From assembly GCA_030141605.1 (NCBI GenBank), contig JAQGDQ010000256.1:62001-126000 (forward strand): DNA of 64,000 nucleotides, written 5' to 3'. The notes beneath the pieces are model-generated. The model did no database searches, was not told where the DNA came from, and saw nothing but the letters and a program-made list of their open reading frames with translations. The translations under genes were made by a program, and so were the position numbers. The DNA is from Tubiluchus corallicola. Taxonomy: Eukaryota > Animalia > Priapulida. Below, piece by piece: positions 1 to 17,558 of the stretch. Within the stretch, counting starts at the first letter, position 1. The number at the start of each line of letters is the position of its first letter.

Positions 1-3000
1 GCATTCAAGCTATATAACCTTGCAACTAGCTCGTGAACTCGAATTGCCGTTAACAGACCCTGAAACTGTTAATATAGCCACCTTTGCGAATCCGTCAGTT
101 AGTAAGATCGAATGCTATAGAGGTGCAATTAATCTTTTTAGTAAAGATAGCTCACAGATACTTAAAATGCATGTGCGAATTATACCAGAAATTGCACCTG
201 CTGCTACTACCCGCTCACCCCTACCTGCAAAGATTCGTTCTCTACTGGATAGTTTTTCTGATCTTGCAGATTCAGACCCGGGTGGAAAGTCTGAAACAAG
301 CGTTCAGTTTTTGATTGGCAATGACTACTATCTTTCACTTCTGTGTAATAAGTATCACATCTTCCCAGGACTGTATCTAATTGATTCCATAGTGGGAAAA
401 ATAGTTGGTGGGAGAATAAATACTAAGGCTTCATGCAGTCTTAGTTTTGAATATAAAGAAACCTCCCTCTAGCCTGGCGTTACTACAAACGGTTTAGAGC
501 TGCTCTGAGACACTTTGTCCACTCCTACTGGCGAAACTTATCTCTCTTGTGTGGATGATACTTTACCGGAGAATGGGAAACATAAACCTGGTCACATATT
601 TTCTATATAACGATTCTGGTACCTGGACACGTAGGGCAACACGGACTGTTCAAGTCAATCACCTGATGAAACGGCCCAACAAAACTTCAATCGCTCAATA
701 GAATTTCGTGGTGATAGATATTATGTTTCCTGGCTCTGGAAAACAAATCATCCTCCTTTACCTGATAACTATAATCTTGCACTCGGGCGTCAAATCTTGT
801 CTTTGAAAACTTAGTTCTCTGCCCGAGTTACTGGCCCAGTGTGACAAAGTGATACGTGATCAGCATGCCAAGGGAATAATTGAACTCGTCACCCCAGATT
901 TTATTCAGGGCCCTATACATCACTACATCCCACACCATGCTGCGATCAAGCCAGAACGAGTGACTTCCCAAGTCCGTATAGTGTATGACGGATCTGCAAA
1001 GGCAATCCCCACTACAGTGTCATTAAATCAACGTCTTCTCCGTGGTCCTGTTCTTCTGCCAGATTTATGTGGCATACTGCTTCGTTTTAGATTGCATCCC
1101 ATTGCAATAACTAGTGATATAATGAAAGCGTTTTTGCACGTCGGGCTACATGAAGAAGACAGGGACATCACTCGCTTCCTATGGATTAAAGATATATCTC
1201 AGCCACATGTCTACGTAACAATCTTCAAAAATTTCGCTTTACAAGGCCCCCCTTTGCCTTATTTCGTCTCCGTTTCTTCTTTCTGGCACAATTAATCACC
1301 ACCTTCGGCCAATGGGACAGATATACCCCATAGCTTAAAAAATTTTGAGGGACATGTATGTCGACAACCTAATTACTGAGGTGGCCACTTTGAGGGAAGC
1401 CATAGCTTTCTATGACGATGCAAAAATCCTGTTCTCAACAGCAGCTTTTAACTTAAGAGAATGGTCTTCTAACTCAACTGAATTCATTGAATCCTTACCA
1501 GAAAAAGACCAAGTGTTAGCAAATCATGCCAAGTTATTAGGCCTTAGTTGGGATATAACTAATGATACGCTATCTATTGCTCGTATTCACTTGACTTGTT
1601 TCAATGAAGCAATTACTAAGCGGCAAATTTTTCAAGCAGTCGCAAAAAAATATTTGACCCTTTTGGTCTTGTCAGCGCTCTTGTAATAGGTGCTAAACTG
1701 TTTATTACTTTTCTGTGGCGAGAAAAATATGATTGGGACACTGTTATAGATGATACTCACCGCGCCACCTGGATAGAACTTGTTGAATCTCGTAGACTGA
1801 TTTTGCATATAAACGTCCCTAGATGCGTCACTCAAATGCATTGCCATTCTTCGAATGAGTTTCAACTCGTCTGTTTTGTAGATGGCTCTCAGAATGCTTA
1901 CTGTGCCATCATCTATCTTAGACAATGCTATGATGGCGAATGCACTACTCATCTTATATTCTCAAAGGCACGCATAGCACCACCTAACACAAGTGTTCCA
2001 AGCGTCAAACTTTTAGCGCTAAAAGGCGTACGAGCTATGAATTTCGTTGAGAAACATTTGAACGTAACGATCTCTCGTCTCATTGTTTTCTCGGATTCAG
2101 TCTGCGTGCTTTCGTGACTACAATCAAAGAAGCTGCTTGCGAACTTCGTTCAGAATCAAATAGCAGAAATTCGCAAAAAAAACTGAAACAGAATTTCGTC
2201 ATGTGCCAACAGAATTAAATCTAGTTGATTTAGGCACTAAGCTTCCAGTGAAACCCCTAAATAAATTTTGGTTTCATGGACCAGAATTTATTCAAATGAA
2301 TGAATCGTACTGGCCCGTAGGCACTTTGCCTACATTGACGTCTAAAAAGCTCGAACAAATAAATAGAGAAATAAAACACGGAAGCTCAGTGCTTTTTGAA
2401 ACGAGCTGCGTGGCACAAACTGTACATCATACAGTACATGACTTCTAAATTTTTGATATAAACAGATTTTCGTTCTTTATGTCGTCTAATAAACGCAACA
2501 TGCTGGCTCTATCAAGCAATAGATAGGTGGATGCTTAGATCACCTGCAGCGGGTGCGCTTACAGCTGCTGAAGTTTACCACGCGCGTCTAAAGTGGATAA
2601 AATATATTCAGCATGAAGAGTACTTCCTTCCAGACGGTTCTTTCAACTCTTTGCATCCGTCACTGCGCGAATTGCGAACATTGCAGGACGATCAGGGTCT
2701 AATCCGTTGTTCGAGTAGAGTGAAGCAAATCTGTCCAACACAAGGTGAAAATTTACCTACATTGCTCAAACTGCCATGTCGGAACTGCTCAAACCCTTGC
2801 TTTACTACTGCAAAACTATTGGATTCCGGCAGGCAGGGCTCTTGTCAAAAAAGTGCTCAATCGTTGTACTGTATGTCGCAAAATGGATGGTGGACCATAT
2901 AAAATGCCTTCTATGGCAGATTTACCACTTGAACGCGTCCAATCATCAGACCCATTCGCTCATATTGGGATAGACTACGTTGGTCCGATTTTGGCCAAGA

Positions 3001-4614
3001 AATATACCCCTGACTCTCGTAAACCTAATCTCGAAAAGGTATGGGTCTGCCGGTTTGTTTGTCTATCCGTCAGAGCCATTCACATTGAATTGGTAACTGA
3101 CTTGACAGCTGAAACGTTCATTTTGGCTTTACGACGTTTCTTTGCCCGTCGCGGAACACCAAAAACAATTATTAGTAACAATGCTAGCCATTTTCATCTC
3201 GCAAAGCAGTCGGTCTCTACCTTCTTTATGCAACAGTTAAGTCTACCCAAGTTCAAAATTTTCTGGGGCAAGCAACAATCACCTGGAAATTCATTATTAC
3301 CCTGAGTCCCTGGATTGGCGGCTTTTACGAAATTCTCGTTGGTCTTGTAAAACGCTGCCTGAAAAAGACTATTGGCTGCAAACCCTTATATGAATGCCAA
3401 CTTAATACCCTTCTGGTTGAGGTGGAAAATATTCTTAATAGCCGCCCCCTCACTTACGTTGATTCTAGCATTCATTCATTCACAGTTATCACACCTAATC
3501 ATTTCCTCAATACTCTTTCAAACAACAATTTACCTATTGAGTCGAACTTTGACCTTGACCCTACCTACCAACCAGAGACTCCGTCTTCTGCATACTTTAC
3601 GTACACGATGGAAGAAAGACCTGAAGCAGTTGGACGCATTTTGGACGATTTGGCAAAGAGACTATCTGTTGAGCTTGCGAGAACGCTACCAGTCGTCTGT
3701 GAAACAAAAACGCGTCACCTCAACTTATCTGCCCTGCATCAATGACGTCGTGTGGTGCAAGATGTGGACATTCCCAGAAGTCAGTAGAAATTGGGCCGTA
3801 TCACAGAGCTCATTCGTAGCCGAGATGGTAATATTCGAGCCGCCGAAATACTAGTGAGAGGAAATCAAAAGAAGAATAGTGAACTAGTTCGTTCTTTAAA
3901 TATCTTGTTTCCTCTGGAGTTTGATGATAATTCTGTTCACAACACTGAGACTGAGGAAAACGGAAAAAACCAACGTGCAGCTGATTCCACTCGACCGGCT
4001 ATTCGACCCACATCGACCAGAGCTGCCGCCATCGCTGCCGCTAAACGAATTTCGAGAATTGCAGCAGAGGAAGCTAAAGCTTAAACAACGCTAATGGACC
4101 TTAAAATCAGAAACATTATGAAACCCTACAGAAAATCTGTTTCATTCAGGTCTTTCGTTGTTTTAAATTTGCAAATTTGTGTGTTTGTTCAAGCAATATT
4201 GTTTTTGCTATCACGATATCTTCGTTTTGATTTAACAATTTGCTATGTGAACTCTTTTTACATACTGCTAAAGTATTAAGTTGTGATTACGTGGCGAGAG
4301 TGACTACGTTGCCGTCTTACTGAAGTACAGTAATTTTGTTGCGACGTTTAAGTGAAATTAACGTACTTATCTGCTTAATTGCAAATTATGTAAATTTTTT
4401 GTTTGTCGGGGAGTGTCGAGAATTTAAATTCCGCTTTATTCATATTGGCTTCATTTCAGTTCAGGCCTTTAACTAGGTCAATTTCTAGAGAAAGATATGT
4501 TTAGTTTAGTTTACAGTAAGACTGCTTCTTTTACACAATAAAGAATATAGCTCGCAAATTTCTATATTTAAAGAGAATTTTCTTTCTACGTATTGAATCT
4601 AAAACTTTACAACA
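1..4614 (+). mobile_element. Degenerate BEL/Pao LTR retrotransposon (pol plus 3' LTR); 5' part lies outside the window
   Basis: Frameshifted ORFs in BEL/Pao order: protease tail (SYIT..LA..LEL, FLIGNDY), RT (HYIPHHA, RIVYDGSA, SLNQRLLRGP, SDIMKAF, YVDN), Pao RNase H (FVDGSQNAYCAIIY, LIFSKARIAP), integrase (CxxC, MADLPLERV, PFAHIGIDYVGP, RAIHIELV, RRFFARRG) and DUF5641-like FWTIWQRDYLLSLRER. Multiple stops and frameshifts. Confidence 0.95.
4414..4614 (+). repeat. Putative 3' LTR of the BEL/Pao element
   Basis: Purine tract GGGGAG immediately before TGTCG at 4414, internal AATAAA at about 4537, and an end ...TTACAACA at 4614 where Gypsy coding sequence resumes. Confidence 0.6.
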
Positions 4615-6106
4615 CTTAGGTGGTGTACTAAAACACTGTTTAATGTTAAATGGTGTCACAGCAGTTCGGTAATCATTACCTAGCAAAAAGGGCACAGGAA
4701 GACTATCAGACACTGCCACTCTCAATCTACCATTGACTAGCGTACATTCCACCTCAACAACAGCTATACGTGTACTTTTAACATCGCCATGCACACACCA
4801 AATTTTAGTACAATTTTCACTTTGTAGAAACTGTTCTAGACGGACATAACGTGGTTGGATCAAACTCACGCTAGCAACAGAATCTCTTATACCATCAATC
4901 CAGATACCATTAATTTTAGCTTTAAAGCTAAACTCATCAGACTCAGGCATACACTAGGTGAACTAGTTGAGTGACTGGATTGGTGACCAGTACCTCCTGC
5001 CTTGGCCAAGAATTGACGACTAGGATTTCTGCTCTTGCCACTAGTTTCACCATAATTAGGGCGTTTCGGGCACTGGGTCCTTTTGTGTCCAAGTTCTCCA
5101 CAAGTATAACAGCGTATCTTCTTCATGACGTCGTTATTCATCTTTTTTCCAGAACCATTTGAAAAAACTGCCGGCCTAGAATTTCCACGATGTTGTTGCA
5201 TTGGTTTAAGTTTTGAAGCCGTACCTAACGCATTAGAAGCAATGTACAAATCAGCTTTCTCTGTCACCTTTTCCATTGTCTTCTGCCCTTGCTGCCTGAC
5301 CCAAATGCTCATTTCACGGGGCATCAATGTAATTGCCTGCTCAATACATAGCAGTTCACAAACGTTCTCAAAGGTGGACGCTTCTTCGGCTTTCAGCCAT
5401 TCTTGCAGGGCACGATCAAGCCGTGCAAAAAACTGACGGAATGTTCCATCCGGTCTCCGAGTAATCTTGCGGAAAAGCTCAAGATACATGTCATTGGAGA
5501 GGACATAGGCAGGTAACAAAGTCTTCTTTATAACATTGTAATCTTGCATGCTGTCAAGTGGTAGTGTTGAAACAGTAGTAGTTACAGCGAAAAACAGTAG
5601 TTACAGTGAAAAAACTTTATGCTTGCAGAATATTTATAAATTTGTCATTCAACTGACACACACTGGCTCAACGCATACAGTCATACAAAAATACTGCATA
5701 TTAGGGTAATGTAAGTGCAAATCAAACAAAGTAGCAAACTAGAAATATACAAAATCTAGGCTAAGACCTTTGACTAGCCTGCAACGAAATAACGGTTTCA
5801 CTAGCACTTGAAACATTTATAGTGCAATCAAGGACAAATCGGGTGTTCAAGTCGGCATATACATGGAATTATAGCGTTTATAAAATCTGCAGGAAAACTA
5901 TTTAAATAATGGACAAAACACATTCAACTGAGTAATCAATAAATTCATTCAACGGAAGATGCTATGTTCTTTCGACATGCTTTTGCCCAAAGTTTCCCCC
6001 AGAAAATTAGCTATGTAACTAATTTCCTGAAAGTAAATATCATTAAATTCTCAAAATGCTGACAAGGAATTTTATTCCTACCGAGTTACACCAAATAAAG
6101 TCAAAA

Positions 6107-6124
6107 ATCCCACTTCTGACACCA
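6107..6124 (-). other. Primer-binding site complementary to the tRNA-Leu 3' end
   Basis: Minus strand reads TGGTGTCAGAAGTGGGAT, 3 nt downstream of the LTR end (…TCACA). This matches my recollection of the tRNA-Leu acceptor end ATCCCACTTCTGACACCA. Confidence 0.85.
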
Positions 6125-6127
6125 GAA

Positions 6128-6585
6128 TGTGACGATGTAGTCTAATTTCCGCTATTGCAAATAGGTGGTTCGTGATTTAAGTGTAACCCTTAGGTAAAGA
6201 ATAAAACACTTAGTCGAAAACACTGGAAAAAAAACCACTGAAGTAATAAAATAATATACCAATTTAATTAATATCCCAAAATACATTGCAAGACAAATAT
6301 TAATAATAAAGATTAAGCCGGCTAAGAAAAACAAAGAACAACGTAACGTTTTTCGACAGTCCTGTCTTGGCATCATCAGGCGACTTTTCTCCTGCTCCCA
6401 TTCCGCTTCATCTCTCTCTGACTCCTCACCAGGGGGCTTCATCGAGAAATGGTGCACCATAGAACGGTTGAGTATACTACTTCTTCATGGATCTGATTAC
6501 GTGAACGACGACTCCTGATGACATCCTCCCCTCCACTTATATGACGACAAAATAGAGTAGCATTCAAACTCCTGCACTCGTCACA
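6128..6585 (-). repeat. 5' LTR (458 bp) of the Gypsy element
   Basis: 8-bp inverted termini TGTGACGA (6128) and TCGTCACA (6585), directly adjacent to the PBS. Confidence 0.8.
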
Positions 6586-7199
6586 AGGTAAGGATCACCA
6601 ATTTCGTAATTACAACATGGAAGCACCAACGACAGTATCATCAACGTCAGGTAAATGCGGGTAAGTATCATCAGCAGCAGATATTGCCGACAACTGGTAA
6701 GTACAATCTTTTATAAGTTATGTATCATCAGCGTCAGGAAAATGTAATCAGCAACAGGTAAGTATCATCGCTGGAACGTAGTCGTAACCACGTAGACAGA
6801 TCGCTTTTCTACAAGCAAGCACCGTTACTAAACCATCATTTTATGACATGAGAACGTCCGCTTAATTCGATAGCTTAAAGCGGAATACGTAGGCGAACTG
6901 AACAGCCAAAATTTCGTCTACGTGGCTTCAATCACATGATGTAGCAGTAATGCATAAACAGTGTCATTGAATGTACAGGTGAAATCTGATTTCAGAACTG
7001 GTTAGCTTCTGTCGTTATACCGTTAAACAGTTTAACTAAACTTCTTTTATGAAAATTGAAAATAATAAATGGTGGAATTATAACAGTAGGAACTAGTTAC
7101 ATAACCTGGCCTAAAATAAGTCTGAGCGTCACACGCAGGATAAAGGACGACGTCACACGTCGCACACGTCCGTCAAGCCCACAATGCATTAGGGATCCC

Positions 7200-7858
7200 T
7201 TAAAGCACAAAAACCCTCCACTTGCATAAAGCTTAAAAAATTCGTCTCGAAATTTTATACCACTGAAAAACCTTTTTGTATGCATGCCTTGCATTGGCCG
7301 CAATGCTGTATAAAACTTGTAAATTTAAACTCCCGCGATGACCGATGCACAGCCATGGTAGGCCGTTTGAAACAAGTTTTGATAACATCAAGGAAAGTTT
7401 GAAAAAATAATCAGAGCATTCGTAGCATACATTTTGCTAATTAAGTAAAACTTTAAATTACTGTATCTTGTCAATAAGATTGAGAATACGTTTTTGGCTA
7501 GTGAATGGTGCACCCTGGAGGGTGAGCCAGCGACATTTTACTAGTTGGCACAAACATTATAAATTATTATTTCTAGTATTTTCCAGCAGATAAGCGAAGT
7601 GCTAAGTAATATAGATTTGCACGGAAAGTTTTTTGGGTCATAATTTAACATTGCCTTTTCTTCTCCTGATTAACGGGGCGTAGTGACGTCATGTAAAGAC
7701 GCCTTCGGAACAGTATTGCGGGAGATTTAAAATTAAAACAAACGAAAATTCCTTTCAACGCGAATACCATATGTGCATAAAATTGCTGTAAAGTAGTACA
7801 ATTTTTTAAGGCGATTATTCTGAAACCTACTTCAGGTGCCCTTTTTCTAGTCCTTTAA
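7200..7858. mobile_element. Non-autonomous DNA transposon (MITE), TTAA-flanked, Kolobok-like; copy 1
   Basis: Colinear similarity to 51507-52134 (e.g. AAATTTAAACTCCCGCGATGACCG, GGTGCACCCTGGAGGGTGA, CTGAAACCTACTT). Ends TTAAAGCACA...GTCCTTTAA form imperfect TIRs within TTAA. Confidence 0.75.
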
Positions 7859-7877
7859 AACAGCTATGAGGGATGGA

Positions 7878-7950
7878 CTATGGTGGCCTAGTGGCTATGA
7901 CGTCGATCTTGTAAGTCGAGTCTCTGGTTTTAATCCAGGTTGTCCTAACT
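7878..7950 (+). mobile_element. tRNA-derived SINE-like fragment
   Basis: A-box-like TGGCCTAGTGG and degenerate B-box GGTTTTAATCC at tRNA-like spacing; no intact cloverleaf. Confidence 0.4.
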
Positions 7951-8200
7951 TTTCACATTTCTTATTTTTCGAATTTGGTATCAGCGTTTAATTAATTTTA
8001 GGTTTGTATCAAGCATGTTGTAGCTCTGTTGTTACAAAGTCAAGGTACTAGTAAATCAATAGCGTTTTGGATGCACCCCAGTGAGACAAAGCTACCTTCG
8101 GGTAAAACAATGGTCTTGCAGAGAATAAAATGAAACCCGTTAAGGTAAGAAGAAAATAAATGAGTCGAAGTTAATGTGCGATAGTTATGCATGCCTGTAC

Positions 8201-11200
8201 CTGTTGAAGCCTCTGCACTCGTTTCACCAGTGATAATTTCGTCAAGTTTCCATCCTGCAACGTGGACATGTCTTAGATCTGTGCTTCTTTCACCAAACCA
8301 TGCGAATTTCACATCATCCTCAATGTGCCCATCTGAAATATACTTAACTCAGTTAATATAAAGAAACCTACAAACTGACAAAAATAAAGAAAACTGTAAA
8401 GAAGGAAAATAAGTGACACGCAGTCGTTTAAGCACATGGGCATTAAAAGAACAAAAAAGAAATCACTCTTCTTATACGCAATAAGTTGAAGTCATTAAAG
8501 TGCTTTCAGTCTTCAGTTAAATATCTTGGTAGAGAGATTTTAGCAAAATAGATCTAATATTCACTTAGGTTTATATAGTCGTATTACATAAGGCGGTCAA
8601 TCAATCTAACACTAATAATCAATCTAACACTAAAAACAATATTGCATCTAACTGTATACGATACAATTAAAGATTCAGTTTTGCCTTTATTTATTTTATT
8701 CATTAAATTCATGATGTTTGCATATACGTGCGAGGAGTAGTTACAACATTATTATATGATAAAGTACTCGTGTCTGTTTCTCTATATTACCATGATTGTT
8801 TCTACGTTTTGCATCTTCTTTTACAATGTAGGTTTAATCACATTGTATAATGCAAACCTTGCTCAAATTGTTACACTACTGCAGTTAGGAAGCACATCAG
8901 AACACTTCTTGCCTGTTAATCGTGCGTTACTTTCACGCTGTTTGTACCATTTACCATTCAATTACTGAATGATTCACTCATTTACTCAGTTATATATTTT
9001 ATGATACACATATTTGATACAAATATACATAAAGAACTTGCGGTAAAGTTCATGCAATTTAAAGTCTTCACAATTAAGCTCTTTGCATAGTGTAATTTTA
9101 TCTAGATATAAAAATTGGTTTCCCTGTAAACTCTTTTACAAGATACAATGTCACCAAGATGTAAAAAAAATTGGTTACCTTGTATTTTATTTTCATGTAA
9201 ATACAAAAATATCCTCACAAATTGGCTTAAGAGTTATTTTAGTGTAATTTTTACGACCGATTATAATAGCTCTTGCAGCGAAAACGTTTTGTAAAAAGTT
9301 GACTTGAAACAGAAAGAAATAAGTTCTTCCATCGTATGTTTACAGATAATGGGAAACTCTACTGTAAAAAATATAATGATTATACTTACAACTTTCTATA
9401 TACATACTACAGATTTGAGTGTCAAATGGAAACTTCCTGAAATCCATCGGAGCCATCATGGTAACACGGATCCTGAAACCATGTAGTTTGTTATAACACG
9501 ATAGGCACGGGGTGGTTGGTGCTATTGCTAGACAGCTAGCCAGATAATTTAAAATTAGCACGGTAGGCCTAAAGTTACTAATTCTATGCGTTGTCTTGTC
9601 ATAAAGAATTTCTGCCACTGATAATCGGTTCAATAATTTTCAATAAGACCGATACGTAGAAAATGTAGAAACAATCTTGGTGATATATGAGAAACAATAT
9701 TGTAAGTATGTATACTATACACTTAAAGGTATTGTATTAAGTATTGTTTTCACGACTGTTTCTACTTTTTGTACGTTTTTATAAGGATTTTACACTTTTT
9801 ACACAGCTTAAATCTATATTGTTTAAATATTATCATTAAATGGGCACACAATTTATTAAATTTTATTTCTATTGCAGTGCTACTCTCAGTTGGATCAGCA
9901 AGGTAAACTGTCAACAACTAGTCGACCTATCTTTGACCAGTAGGATCATTCTTAACAATCAAACTGACCACTCAACCGGCCCCGAGAAGTACAAATTTAC
10001 TCGCTTAAGCTGACACATTGCAGACATATTAAATTTTACTAACTTGGAACTTGTCAGTACGTCTCCATTATGCGTAATGCGAGCAAACCCAGACCCTCTC
10101 TCTCCCATTTTTACTTGGCTTGCTCTTTTGGCATTCGAAAAGAAAGGGTCTGGAGTCCAGATACTATATGGTGGATAAAGAGTTATTTTGTGTGCAGAGT
10201 CATGAAAGGCAAGGCGTGGATCATTCCATCGCTGTCTGAAGAAAACTGTTGCGCTCCACTCCTAAAAATAAAAAAACCATGCTTGCATTAAATGACTGAT
10301 TTTATTTTACTCTTTATTTCGAACTAAGTCCAGCATAATAATTACAGCAACATAACAGCAAAATAATTACAAAACAATTAATACTAATCAAATCATTATA
10401 ACCCCTCCCTCCGAACATATGCAAGTTGATACACAACATATACAAGCAAAATAACATTTCAAAAGATATATACAAAATACGATGCTTCAAGTATGAATCT
10501 TCACCCATAGTTTCTGCATGATGTCTCATTGGTCGTTCACATCTGATGCGAAAAATGCGTCACTGCTATTCAATGCTTTTATAGAGTATTAGAAATTCTG
10601 TTACTCTACTATATAGACTGTGTGTAATTTTCCTGTGTATTACTCAGCGTACAAAGCACCATGGCCACCAAAATGGTTCTGGAACCATAATCATATGGAT
10701 AATTGAAAAATTAAGGTTTAGAAATATTCTAAGCCACTTTACGTTTGCTGTACTCTGTAGTTATAAAAATGCCGCCAGATTACCATACCGATAAGAATTA
10801 ACAATAAGAGTTAAACAGACGAATTTAACATTAACTGAACAATAATGAAACCTTCTAAAAATGCGGTTCGCTCTAGCCTGATAATATCCAGATCATCTTT
10901 ATTGTCTTTTGTGACTGACTGGCTGACTGACTGACTGACTGACTGACTGACTGACTGACTGACTGACTGACTGACTGACTAACTGACTGACTGACTGACT
11001 GACTGACTGACTGACTGACTGACTGACTGACTGACTGACTGACTGAATGACTGACTGACTGACTGACTGACTGACTGAACGAACGAACGAATGAATGAAT
11101 GAGTGACTAAATGACTGACTGACTGACTAATTGATCACTAAGCTGACTGCTTACAAGCTGGAAGCGATGACTGGGTGGTGATTGATTGGTTAGTAGGCTG

Positions 11201-12460
11201 GTTCGCTAATAACGATTCACTGATACGCTTAACTGGTTATTTGGTTAGACAGTCGATAGGCGGTCAGTCTGTCAGTCAGTCAGTCAGTATAAAAAGATTT
11301 TTTATTATTTTAATTTTCCTGCCAGTGCATAAAAACTGAAAATCAGAGCCGTTTTACTTACCATGTTAGCAGTATCAACTGAAACGTCCAGGAAGTATAG
11401 ATTGAGTCCGACGAGCACCGGTTTTTCTCCTAAACAACGACATTGTTTTTGTTAATATTTAAACAACTTTTTAAGTAAATGCATACATATGATTTGTATA
11501 TAGTTGGCTCACGTTCGTGCAACCTTAGAATGGTTCTCTATAAACCTGTTTGGAAGAACTATCTGCTATCCGCAAGACAATATCGACTAGAGGTTTCTTT
11601 TTAAATTGTAATCTAGCTGTATAGTATGGCTATTAATATAGGGGATGAGCATCGAGCTTTGTCTTCTGTGTTAGGTTTTTGAAGTTCCTTGCAGTGGCTA
11701 GCATAGTCCCAGATAGCATAACACCACAATTTTAACACAAATGAAAGAAATGTTGTAATGTTTTAAGTTTTTGAACTTTACTTCCTCTAGATACAGGCTT
11801 AACAACCTACATAGCAAATTTGTGTAACCAGAAATTGTGCACCTAATGTTAATGCAAAAACATTACAAAACTAGCTGTGTAATTTTTTGAAAAAGAAACT
11901 TACTATACTTCTTTTCTTCAGTCGATGAACGATGTTATTGGTGGGGCGCTAAACTAACTGTTATTACGCCGAGGCTTACAGATAAGTAACTTATTTAAAC
12001 TTCATAGACATGTTAAAACAAAAACGTATCGCAATAGCTGTTGCCGCTTCCCGGGATAAAACAGAAGCAAATAGTTATTTGGGGATAATTAAATTTTAAG
12101 CCTTTTGTTATAGTAACGTAGTAGTGTAATAGTCCGTCTAATCAGTTTATAATGATACTTTACTGTATCCTAACTTATTCTATACTATAGAAATTGTAGT
12201 ATTATATAGTATAGCACAATATAGCAGCGACATTTTGTACCGTATCTGTCATAACAAAGCAAAGAAATTTATCCGAGTTAGCTGTTTCTGTTAGCTAATT
12301 TTGCTGACGTAACAAAAAAACTTTATTTACCATAAAAGGGCCTAACGTTGAAGTCGTAATCAGTTAACAACTCGTGGAAAATTTTTGTTGCATTAATGGC
12401 GTGATCTCCCGTAGAGCTGAAAAAGAAGTTATTTTTATGTTAAACGCATTTCATTATTTT

Positions 12461-12535
<75 letters not shown>

Positions 12536-12623
12536 ATTAAAATAAATCTTACTTGGAATCTTGACTTTTGACGCTTGAAAATAAAAAAGCAAAACACAAA
12601 ATAACGTCTCTAATAAGCTTCAT
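8201..12623 (-). CDS. Pentameric ligand-gated ion channel subunit (GABA/Gly/GluCl-like), extracellular domain only; Cys-loop first Cys replaced by Ala. Exons 12553-12623, 12331-12416, 11362-11429, 10044-10261, 9390-9472, 8201-8332
   Basis: All introns are GT-AG with compatible phases (2,1,0,2,1,1) and no stops. Translation: MKLIRDVILCFAFLFSSVKSQDSNSTGDHAINATKIFHELLTDYDFNVRPFYGEKPVLVGLNLYFLDVSVDTANMEWSATVFFRQRWNDPRLAFHDSAHKITLYPPYSIWTPDPFFSNAKRASQVKMGERGSGFARITHNGDVLTSSKIRVTMMAPMDFRKFPFDTQICSMYIESYGHIEDDVKFAWFGERSTDLRHVHVAGWKLDEIITGETSAEASTG. Contains a signal peptide, YD..RP, RQxWxDxRL, WxPD, FPFD and ESYG motifs, and the 68-bp and 83-bp exons typical of anionic pLGIC genes. Confidence 0.9.
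10912..11130. repeat. (GACT)n microsatellite grading into GAAC/GAAT units
   Basis: Direct reading; intronic. Confidence 0.97.
12463..12534. repeat. (CT)n microsatellite
   Basis: Direct reading; intron 1 of the pLGIC gene. Confidence 0.97.
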
Positions 12624-16050: not shown

Positions 16051-17558
16051 GGCCTTTATTTTCCTTCTGAAAATACATTTTCCTTTGACACAAACCTAGC
16101 GACACAATAATTAGCTAGCGTATCATAAACTTTTTCGTCGCTGACGGTAGCTAAGAACTTAACGGGAAACCTCACAAAGGCACACGTACATTAACAGAAG
16201 AGGATCTGTTTTCGTTAGTTACAGTTGCGAAATTGGCTCTGCCTGTCAATTATGAGCTTTAAATTTGGATCTTCTGAAAATGGATTTTCCTTTGATAGAA
16301 ACACTAGATGATCTTGCCATTATAGTTCTAAATCTTCGTTTCACGGACGTTGTTCTGGGTGAACTGGGTCTCCCACTTTTCGTCGTAAATTTTTTAAATA
16401 AAAATCTTTGTTTTCTTAATTTGTCTCTGCTCTTGTATCTTTTTGGTAATTCTCGGCCAAGCTTTAAATGAAATTTTTACCTACTAATTTTTCTAAAATT
16501 TCTTTTGTGATTGGCAGCCAGAGCGACGTTACTCCACCAGTTGCGTGATGGTTGCTGCGTGTATTCGTTCTTCGGCACTTCCTCGATATCTGAGCAGGAC
16601 AAATTTTGCTTTTGTGCGGTCGGGAAAGCAGTGACAACAATAAAAAGGCGTCAATTTTTCTTCATATTATGGAGTAGATTGTTTTGACCTACAGTTTAGG
16701 AATGGGTCCGGTTTTGCTTTAAACAGTTTAATTAGGCTACTTAAATCCGTCAGGTTTTGTAAACAAACATAAACCCATAAACATAGAATTTACATACACA
16801 TCAAAGACATGACTGCTGATGGTATCCATCTTTTTTACAACATAACTAGGTTTTCAAATGTTTTGATGTTAAGTTCCTTAATGAGGTGAAGGTATATATG
16901 TCACTATAATAAACAATTTCTACTACTACGCGCGCTTTAATTGGCGTTTGAATACGTAAAAGGTTCATTAGTTTCCTCTGGCAGGTAGAGCCATAATACA
17001 GTCACCACCATGGTTCCTGTATAACATGTAAAGAACTTTTATTCAAAAATAAATTACATATTTCATTTGGTACTTTAATAAGTTAATGTCAGCACCTGTA
17101 TGTGTGTAGTGCACCTGTAACGGAAAAACGGCAAAATGACAGTGATGTTACTGACTTTTTCATGAAATCCTCAAACCCTCGTTACTAATATAGTGTAAGT
17201 TGATTTAATCAAATGAAAACCTACACAAATTCAAGAAAAACTGACGTCTTTTGCGATGTACTTTGCTGACTGCTTAAAAGGATATGTACACAAGAAATGT
17301 GCCGTTTCGTGATATGAGCTAACGTAAGAGTATGACTAACCAGCTTACGAGAATTACTGGAAATTATCGCAGTTATTTTGGTAAATATGTTCTACACTAA
17401 AACAATATATACAACCGAACATTTTTATTTATAAAAAAAAATCAGAATTTAACAAAATAAAATTACTGTATTGTTGCATCAACAATAAAACAAGCTTGGT
17501 GACTAATTTCATTAATTAGTCTCAAAACAAAATCTGTAGCAGCGTGGCTGACAAATCA

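What the first reader, a model, noticed from the sequence alone, without database searches (positions are those of the whole stretch)
9390..9472. Cys-loop receptor without the Cys-loop disulfide
Seen: the 83-bp exon reads IRVTMMAPMDFRKFPFDTQICSMYIES, versus ISLVLSCQMRLEYYPLDKQFCSLDMAS in the neighbouring GluCl. The first Cys is Ala (GCT at 9451-9453, two substitutions from TGT, so a single-base error is unlikely). The mature ectodomain encoded by the six exons has only one Cys, and all six exons are open with intact splice sites. Established: the C-x13-C bond is nearly invariant in animal pLGICs, while prokaryotic GLIC/ELIC and a divergent Cys-less group keep only the Pro; MDFRKFPFD resembles that prokaryotic loop. 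Inference: this gene has the intron layout of the anionic GABA/Gly/GluCl family, so it probably represents an independent secondary loss of the disulfide in a possibly undescribed lineage-specific channel.
Basis: partly seen in the sequence, partly recalled or inferred. Interest (0 to 1): 0.85.

Follow-up and report, generated by a model that had tools for sequence, protein, structure and literature searches.

The report
Priapulid channel missing Cys-loop disulfide
A neurotransmitter-gated channel gene, likely from a priapulid worm, has alanine in place of one of the two cysteines that staple the family's signature loop while keeping every other near-invariant residue; it is likely a working GABA- or glycine-type subunit that lost the bond on its own, a rare change of a kind already reported in nematodes, a spider and a tunicate.

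Summary
Observation confirmed, on the minus strand. Six GT-AG exons give an open 219-codon ectodomain with Ala155 (GCT) at the first Cys-loop position and one Cys in the mature part. Contigs of two runs from one sample, possibly the window's source, carry the same codon. The protein keeps 18 of 19 columns that are at least 90% conserved in 58 relatives; the one miss is that Cys. Spliced contigs of a diverged relative join exons 3|4 and exon 6 to an exon outside the window, but do not cover the Ala. It is anionic-type, not bacterial-type, and not a duplicate of the neighbouring GluCl (AU p 0.0007); finer placement is unresolved. It keeps the amino-acid-agonist motif with loop-B Glu and no glutamate Arg, so GABA or glycine is predicted. 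Secondary loss in anionic channels is published (Jaiteh 2016), including Cys-to-Ala in a spider. No orthologue was found, the pore exons are absent from the window, and function is untested.

The parts
12553..12623 (-). Exon 1, coding part: ATG and signal peptide (holds Cys10)
   Evidence: Open frame, donor GTAAGA; signal peptide by inspection only; no RNA cover tested
12331..12416 (-). Exon 2 (86 nt): N-terminal helix and YD..RP motif, two N-glycan sequons at 24 and 32
   Evidence: AG/GT ends; sequons; weak profile match
11362..11429 (-). Exon 3 (68 nt): beta1, loop G; Leu66 where ecdysozoan GluCls have Arg
   Evidence: AG/GT ends; joined to exon 4 in an X6 contig; alignment
10044..10261 (-). 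Exon 4 (218 nt): loops D (Arg84), A (Phe115) and E (Ser146)
   Evidence: PF02931 E 1.2e-10; GlyR and GABA-A best in PDB; X6 contig covers 10141-10262, X3 contig 10014-10251 identical
9390..9472 (-). Exon 5 (83 nt): beta6, Cys loop with Ala155 and Cys169, loop B Glu174
   Evidence: PF02931 E 3.6e-07
9451..9453 (-). GCT codon, Ala155, in place of the first Cys-loop cysteine
   Evidence: spanned without difference by X1 and X2 contigs; not covered by X3, X4, X5 or X6
8201..8332 (-). Exon 6 (132 nt): loop B Tyr176, loop F, loop C up to Thr219; no loop C cysteine
   Evidence: AG/GT ends; X6 contig leaves the window at this donor and goes on in frame
1..8200 (-). Intron 6 as far as the window goes: repeats and retroelement remnants; beta10 and M1-M4 exons are not here
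   Evidence: No profile match to a membrane exon and no close match to the exon-7 start; Pfam SCAN, zf-CCHC, integrase

Best explanation
The gene encodes the ectodomain of a fast-evolving anionic-family pentameric channel subunit that lacks the Cys-loop disulfide, and it is likely a working subunit, predicted to bind GABA, glycine or a similar small amino acid, that lost the bond independently in this worm lineage. Shown: Ala155 replaces the first Cys; Cys169 has no partner in the six exons; the rest of the conserved core is intact; a relative splices the transcript on into a beta10 exon. Inferred: the beta6-beta7 loop is held by its conserved Pro163, Asp165, Met157 and neighbouring hydrophobic residues, as in disulfide-free GLIC; Cys169 stays buried as a plain hydrophobic residue; agonist binds between Glu174/Tyr176/Thr219 plus a loop C Tyr on one face and Arg84/Ser146 on the other; the pore, not seen here, would pass chloride.
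For: 18 of 19 columns conserved at 90% or more in 58 relatives are kept, against 22 of 112 variable columns; the only miss is Cys155. Open frame and GT-AG introns despite an end branch of 1.3-2.9 changes per site. Run X6 (RNA by guess) has exon-to-exon contigs at 3|4 and 6|7, with 12 differences in 122 nt and 4 in 91 nt and no gaps; of the 4 differences that could be placed, 3 are synonymous (chance 0.04-0.065). Agonist motif of PMC4338433 (loop B aromatic, loop C Thr and Tyr, loop D Arg, loop E Ser) is present, the loop C Tyr only in the X6 contig; loop B starts with Glu, which abolished glutamate gating in that paper, and loop G and loop A Arg are absent. Separated from bacterial-type rows by a 100/98 branch; pairing with two of them rejected (AU p 0.003, 0.004); grouping with the window GluCl plus Priapulus GluCl rejected (p 0.0007) and with core GluCls rejected (p 0.009).
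Against: No RNA or second individual covers the Ala codon. M1-M4 are not in the window, so ion selectivity and even the presence of a pore in this genome are unseen, and retroelement remnants fill the downstream intron. The tree position moves with the taxon set: inside a GluCl-plus-orphans group (98/97), beside the RDL/GABA group when other long rows are left out (91/78; 83/65), at the base of the animal rows with bacterial outgroups. AU does not reject sisterhood with GlyRs (p 0.168), the wide GluCl-like group (p 0.251) or the Cys-less P0313 (p 0.186). No cationic, nematode LGC-34, ACC/MOD-1 or primary Cys-less animal sequence was in the trees. RDL Glu202 is Tyr here. Cys mutants of Torpedo nAChR and GlyR lose function (as cited in PMC4795631), and C. 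elegans LGC-34 gave no currents (PMC9962794).
Confidence: 0.6

Rival explanations
1. It is a working but non-GABA/glycine subunit: a divergent offshoot of the wider GluCl-like radiation, acting as an accessory subunit or as a sensor of pH, metal or another chemical, like the orphan chloride channels of arthropods.
For: With all rows in, it falls in a 32-row group of GluCls and divergent arthropod orphans (98/97); AU does not reject this (p 0.251). The known spider Cys-to-Ala sequences are GluCl-like. Loop C lacks the first aromatic residue seen in GlyR.
Against: That placement joins long branches and vanishes when they are removed. No loop C cysteine pair, no loop G Arg, Glu in loop B. Best single scores are RDL-like proteins (122.9, 116.0, 114.3 bits; window GluCl 82.3). 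The full agonist motif would be unlikely to persist unused (inference).
Confidence: 0.2
2. The gene, or this allele, is decaying: retroelement insertion cut it off from its membrane exons and the Cys was lost after function ended.
For: No membrane exon in the 8.2 kb downstream; retroelement remnants at 1-5600; no RNA over the Ala codon.
Against: Two base changes are needed at this one codon while 18 other invariant columns, all splice sites and the frame are intact. X3, another study, is identical over exon 6 and most of exon 4; X6 is spliced and continues in frame.
Confidence: 0.1
3. The loss is not independent: the gene belongs to an older Cys-less anionic lineage shared with P0313 (both Cys lost, unnamed source) or with one of the nematode groups.
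For: P0313 is among the closest sequences (42% over 161 residues; 39% over 188 columns), has FPFDTQ in the loop, and pairing is not rejected (p 0.186).
Against: P0313 nests with RDL-like rows apart from the query in the free trees (95/86) and has Phe and Leu at the two sites. It was found with words from this gene, which favours likeness. Dirofilaria/Loa/Ascaris and Strongyloides loops differ plainly: both Cys gone, loop C Cys pair kept (read by eye, not in a tree).
Confidence: 0.07
4. It belongs to the primary Cys-less (Pro-loop) clade of protists, lophotrochozoans and flatworms and never had the bond.
For: Short loop words are shared with bacterial-type proteins (MDFRKFPFD in P0317); it is drawn to the base of the animal rows by bacterial outgroups.
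Against: Cys169 is still there; intron positions match the neighbouring GluCl; scores and AU tests side with animal anionic channels; the amphioxus and sea-urchin Cys-less rows in the Jaiteh alignment look unlike it in loops D and A (by eye).
Confidence: 0.03

Closest known systems
'Secondary' Cys-less pLGICs of the anionic clade (Jaiteh, Taly, Henin 2016, PMC4795631; passages and four supplement parts read)
   Same: Anionic-clade subunit whose Cys-loop disulfide cannot form; FPxD kept.
   Different: Reported from two nematode groups, a spider and Oikopleura; no Priapulus or Halicryptus entry in the supplements (0 hits). The 7 secondary Cys-less rows I read (3 of the Dirofilaria group, 1 Strongyloides, 2 spider, 1 Oikopleura) lack both loop-closing Cys; this one keeps the second.
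Stegodyphus mimosarum GluCl-like A0A087TRD3 and A0A087T721 (rows read in the Jaiteh alignment)
   Same: First Cys replaced by Ala, followed by Pro, with FPFD at the tip.
   Different: Second Cys is Arg; they keep loop G Arg, loop B Ala and the loop C Cys pair of GluCls. Convergent, most likely.
Nematode LGC-34 / Dirofilaria Q70GM3 (PMC9874803 main text; rows read)
   Same: Ecdysozoan anionic-derived subunit without the Cys-loop bond.
   Different: Shifted YPFE/YPFV loop, both Cys lost, second (loop C) Cys loop kept; no agonist found for LGC-34 (PMC9962794 passage).
Insect RDL / GABA-A beta and GlyR alpha
   Same: RDL R111, F146, S176, E204 match Arg84, Phe115, Ser146, Glu174; F206 is Tyr176; Y254 has a Tyr in the X6 contig (numbers from PMC4019635 passages, mapped through PDB 9she at a constant offset). 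No loop C disulfide, as in GABA receptors.
   Different: About 35-39% identity only; not placed inside either clade with support; they keep C-x13-C.

Membership tests
pLGIC (Pro-loop) superfamily | Neur_chan_LBD ectodomain with [F/Y]PxD loop | tested here: met
   PF02931 on exons 4 and 5; FPFD at 162-165
pLGIC (Pro-loop) superfamily | Four membrane helices after beta10 | tested here: inconclusive
   Not in the window; X6 contig goes on for 117 nt past exon 6, of which 30 are shown and read as a beta10-like start
Cys-loop receptor in the strict sense | C-x13-C disulfide | tested here: not met
   Ala155 ... Cys169
Anionic clade (GABA-A/GlyR/GluCl) | Closer to anionic animal subunits than to bacterial-type channels; shared introns | tested here: met
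   cationic rows were not in the trees, but none is among the 60 best of 189 PDB matches to exon 4
Anionic clade (GABA-A/GlyR/GluCl) | PAR-type anion filter before M2 | not testable with these tools
   M1-M2 exon lies outside the window; no genome held
Secondary Cys-less anionic pLGICs (Jaiteh 2016) | One or both loop Cys missing in a member of the anionic clade | tested here: met
   this is a grade defined by the trait, not a clade
Ecdysozoan GluCl | Loop G Arg, small residue at start of loop B, loop C Cys pair | tested here: not met
   Leu66, Glu174, no loop C Cys; AU p 0.009 and 0.0007
RDL / GABA-gated chloride channel | Amino-acid-agonist motif with loop B Glu | tested here: met
   the loop C Tyr is seen only in X6; GlyRs share the motif
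RDL / GABA-gated chloride channel | Supported placement in the RDL/GABA-beta clade | tested here: inconclusive
   Sister to it at 91/78 and 83/65, elsewhere
RDL / GABA-gated chloride channel | GABA-gated chloride current | not testable with these tools
   Needs expression
Primary Cys-less eukaryotic clade | Both Cys absent, prokaryote-like ectodomain, acidic M2 -1'/-2' | tested here: not met
   Cys169 kept; ectodomain is anionic-like; M2 not seen; no animal member of this clade was in a tree
Nematode LGC-34 / Di-LGIC group | Shifted YPFE-type loop, both Cys lost, loop C Cys pair | tested here: not met
   Compared by eye with rows; not tested in a tree

The most novel reading that the evidence does not exclude
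A priapulid-specific, GABA- or glycine-gated chloride channel that folds, assembles and gates as a homomer with a half-open Cys loop (Ala plus a free Cys): the first animal anionic channel without the bond to have a predictable ligand, so a natural test of why the disulfide is needed in all other animal receptors.
Probability: 0.3. Interest if true: 0.65.

Novelty: new member of a known kind. Interest (0 to 1): 0.42.

Why it matters
Jaiteh et al. 2016 state that the conservation of the Cys-loop cysteines remains partly unexplained and that Cys-less animal channels must stabilise the same fold another way. The best-known secondary case, LGC-34, gave no agonist response. This subunit loses the one Cys while keeping the other invariant residues and a full agonist motif, so it is a better candidate than most for a functional test and an Ala-to-Cys revertant. 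The trait itself is not new, which caps the score.

Tried and rejected
Whole-genome search: no genome is held for this window, so the membrane exons and paralogues could not be sought. Orthologue searches: exon 4 by word index, 0 of 7 candidates passed; exon 4 against 1.84 billion representatives, 282 hits at E up to 0.001, the 150 listed at most 52% identical, best single-stretch score 46 bits; an alignment of exons 2-5 on one scaffold protein, 17 of 1737 candidates passed, none orthologous (exon 2 was misaligned there). These searches are weak for a fast-evolving gene. ESM Atlas gave only the generic family. No RNA holder was listed by the run search; X6 came in by species label. X3, X4, X5 and X6 do not cover exon 5: a hole, not evidence. 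Alternative exon 5 with Cys: none. Upstream AGs at 9535 and 9527 could add Cys-containing residues, but they have weak pyrimidine tracts and would break beta6; rejected by inspection. RNA editing cannot turn GCT into a Cys codon by A-to-I or C-to-U (own knowledge). Local duplication from the neighbouring GluCl: rejected. A close paralogue as the source of the X6 contigs: X1 depth is flat at 172 over exons 4 and 5, which argues against one at 80% identity or more. No structure or complex was predicted, since the spliced ectodomain is not a single stretch of the window. A formal dN/dS was not possible: 4 of 17 X6 differences could be placed. Rows dropped before counts and trees: 270 proteins matched, 149 spanned the ectodomain, 55 remained after thinning at 75% identity, 3 were added later (58); trees used chosen subsets of 36, 33, 26 and 25 rows. 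Of 5 rows without C...C in the 58, three (P0238, P0258, P0187) look truncated or mis-spliced. Literature searches that found no description of this gene or of a priapulid Cys-less channel; most subscription papers are not searched.

Full report
Observation. The gene has six coding exons in the window: 12623-12553, 12416-12331, 11429-11362, 10261-10044, 9472-9390 and 8332-8201, with AG and GT ends. Joined, they give 219 open codons with Cys at 10 and 169 only. Exons 4 and 5 match PF02931. The window holds two matches to the loop motif, this exon and the GluCl exon, so there is no spare Cys-bearing copy. Contigs of runs X1 and X2 span the codon without a difference; they are one sample that may be the source.

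Host. The neighbouring gene at 41407-31728 is a complete GluCl apart from its first exon. Its membrane exon is 84% identical to Priapulus caudatus GluCl, the highest identity among the 120 hits listed, and the two pair at 100/96 with 76% ectodomain identity. The host is therefore likely a priapulid other than P. caudatus (inference; no kinorhynch or loriciferan rows were at hand). Unreviewed notes on other pieces of this genome say the same.

Is the gene alive? In an alignment with 58 relatives, 19 columns are at least 90% conserved and the gene keeps 18; the miss is Cys155 to Ala. It keeps 13 of 18 columns at 75-90%, 20 of 40 at 50-75% and 22 of 112 below 50%. The relatives were partly chosen by likeness to exon 4. 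Run X6 (RNA by the tool's guess, same species label, another study) has two contigs that join exon 3 to exon 4 and exon 6 to a further exon; they differ at 12 of 122 and 4 of 91 letters, without gaps. Three of the four differences that could be placed are synonymous, a weak sign (chance 0.04-0.065). The 30 letters shown past exon 6 continue the frame as a TGxYxR-type beta10 start with no Cys. That exon is not in the window (0 matches at 3 mismatches; best 11 mismatches of 32), nor is any membrane exon of this gene. The 8.2 kb downstream hold high-copy repeats and retroelement remnants. No run other than X1 and X2 covers the Ala codon.

Relatives. No orthologue was found in three searches. The best full ectodomain matches are 35-43% identical: RDL-like, GlyR-like and orphan arthropod chloride-channel subunits. 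In the PDB, exon 4 is nearest GlyR and GABA-A, and exon 5 nearest GABA rho-1 and GlyR, ahead of GLIC. Exon lengths 218/83/132 and their phases parallel 221/83/135 in the GluCl; 68/221/83 is the GABA-A/GlyR pattern (recalled). Trees put the gene on the animal side of a 100/98 branch against bacterial-type Cys-less rows, and AU tests reject pairing with two of them (p 0.003, 0.004). Within the anionic group the place is unstable: among GluCl-like orphans in the 56-row tree (98/97, with a long-branch warning), beside RDL/GABA when other long rows are removed, basal with bacterial outgroups. Rejected: local duplicate of the GluCl (p 0.0007) and core GluCls (p 0.009). Not rejected: wide GluCl-like group (0.251), GlyR (0.168), P0313 (0.186). 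The loop columns were left in these trees.

Mechanism. PMC4338433 (passages) defines an amino-acid-agonist motif and shows that ecdysozoan glutamate gating needs a loop G or loop A Arg and is abolished by Glu at the start of loop B. This protein has Arg84, Ser146, Tyr176 and Thr219, a loop C Tyr in the X6 contig, Glu174, and neither Arg. The RDL residues named in PMC4019635 (passages) map to the same sites through PDB 9she; RDL Glu202 is not kept. GABA, glycine or beta-alanine is thus predicted, glutamate not. With Ala155 the disulfide cannot form. The change needs two substitutions, by way of Ser or Gly if they came one at a time. I infer that the loop is held by Pro163, Asp165, Met157 and hydrophobic packing, as in GLIC, and that Cys169 is buried. 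None of this was modelled or measured, and chloride selectivity rests on family alone.

What is known. PMC4795631 (passages; supplement search and parts 147, 148, 199 of file 1, and file 2) describes a primary Cys-less clade and 'secondary' Cys-less sequences inside the anionic clade: two nematode groups, two spider genes, one Oikopleura gene; their screen accepted loss of one or both Cys. The spider rows have Ala at the first position too. The seven secondary rows that I read lack both Cys. I read 3 of 201 parts of that alignment, so unread rows may include one-sided cases; no Priapulus or Halicryptus entry is in it. PMC9874803 (main text) covers schistosome Cys-less channels and LGC-34. PMC9962794 (passages) reports no currents for LGC-34. 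PMC4569296 and PMC9318448 (passages) added nothing on this trait. My own set held two more credible natural cases among 58: P0179 (second Cys is Val) and P0313 (both lost), both unnamed. Seven paper searches found no description of this gene.

Verdict. Real, likely functional, most likely an independent secondary loss in a lineage-specific orphan subunit. The kind is known; the member appears to be new, and its one-sided loss with an intact agonist site makes it a good test case. Interest 0.42.

Noticed in passing
window 41407-31728, minus: Intact GluCl gene (7 exons traced, first exon not sought), orthologous to Priapulus caudatus GluCl; same strand, 19 kb upstream of the finding's gene.
   Followed up: yes
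window 18524-17562 and 13963-13274, minus; possibly also near 16050-15700: Two tandem Gly/Tyr-rich proteins with a chitin-binding CBM_14 domain, likely cuticle proteins; the 3' ends near 17520 and 15694 look alike, which hints at a third copy.
   Followed up: no
window 22499-21231 and 29321-28359, minus: Single-exon GT10 fucosyltransferase and a Cyclase-family (PF04199) gene between the two channel genes.
   Followed up: no
window 1-4100 plus and 5600-4534 minus: Broken retroelement pol with integrase (BEL/Pao-like by recall) and an opposite SCAN/zinc-knuckle gag remnant inside intron 6.
   Followed up: partly
window 7190-7900: Very high-copy short repeat (summed contig depth about 1e6 in X1 against 172 for unique sequence).
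   Followed up: no
proteins P0313 and P0179: Unnamed full-length anionic-type subunits with natural Cys-loop loss: P0313 (RDL-like, both Cys lost) and P0179 (GluCl-like, second Cys is Val).
   Followed up: partly
runs X1-X3 against X6, window 10141-10262: X6 bears the same species label as X1 yet differs by about 10% in coding sequence, while X3 is identical; a cryptic species or a mislabel is possible.
   Followed up: no
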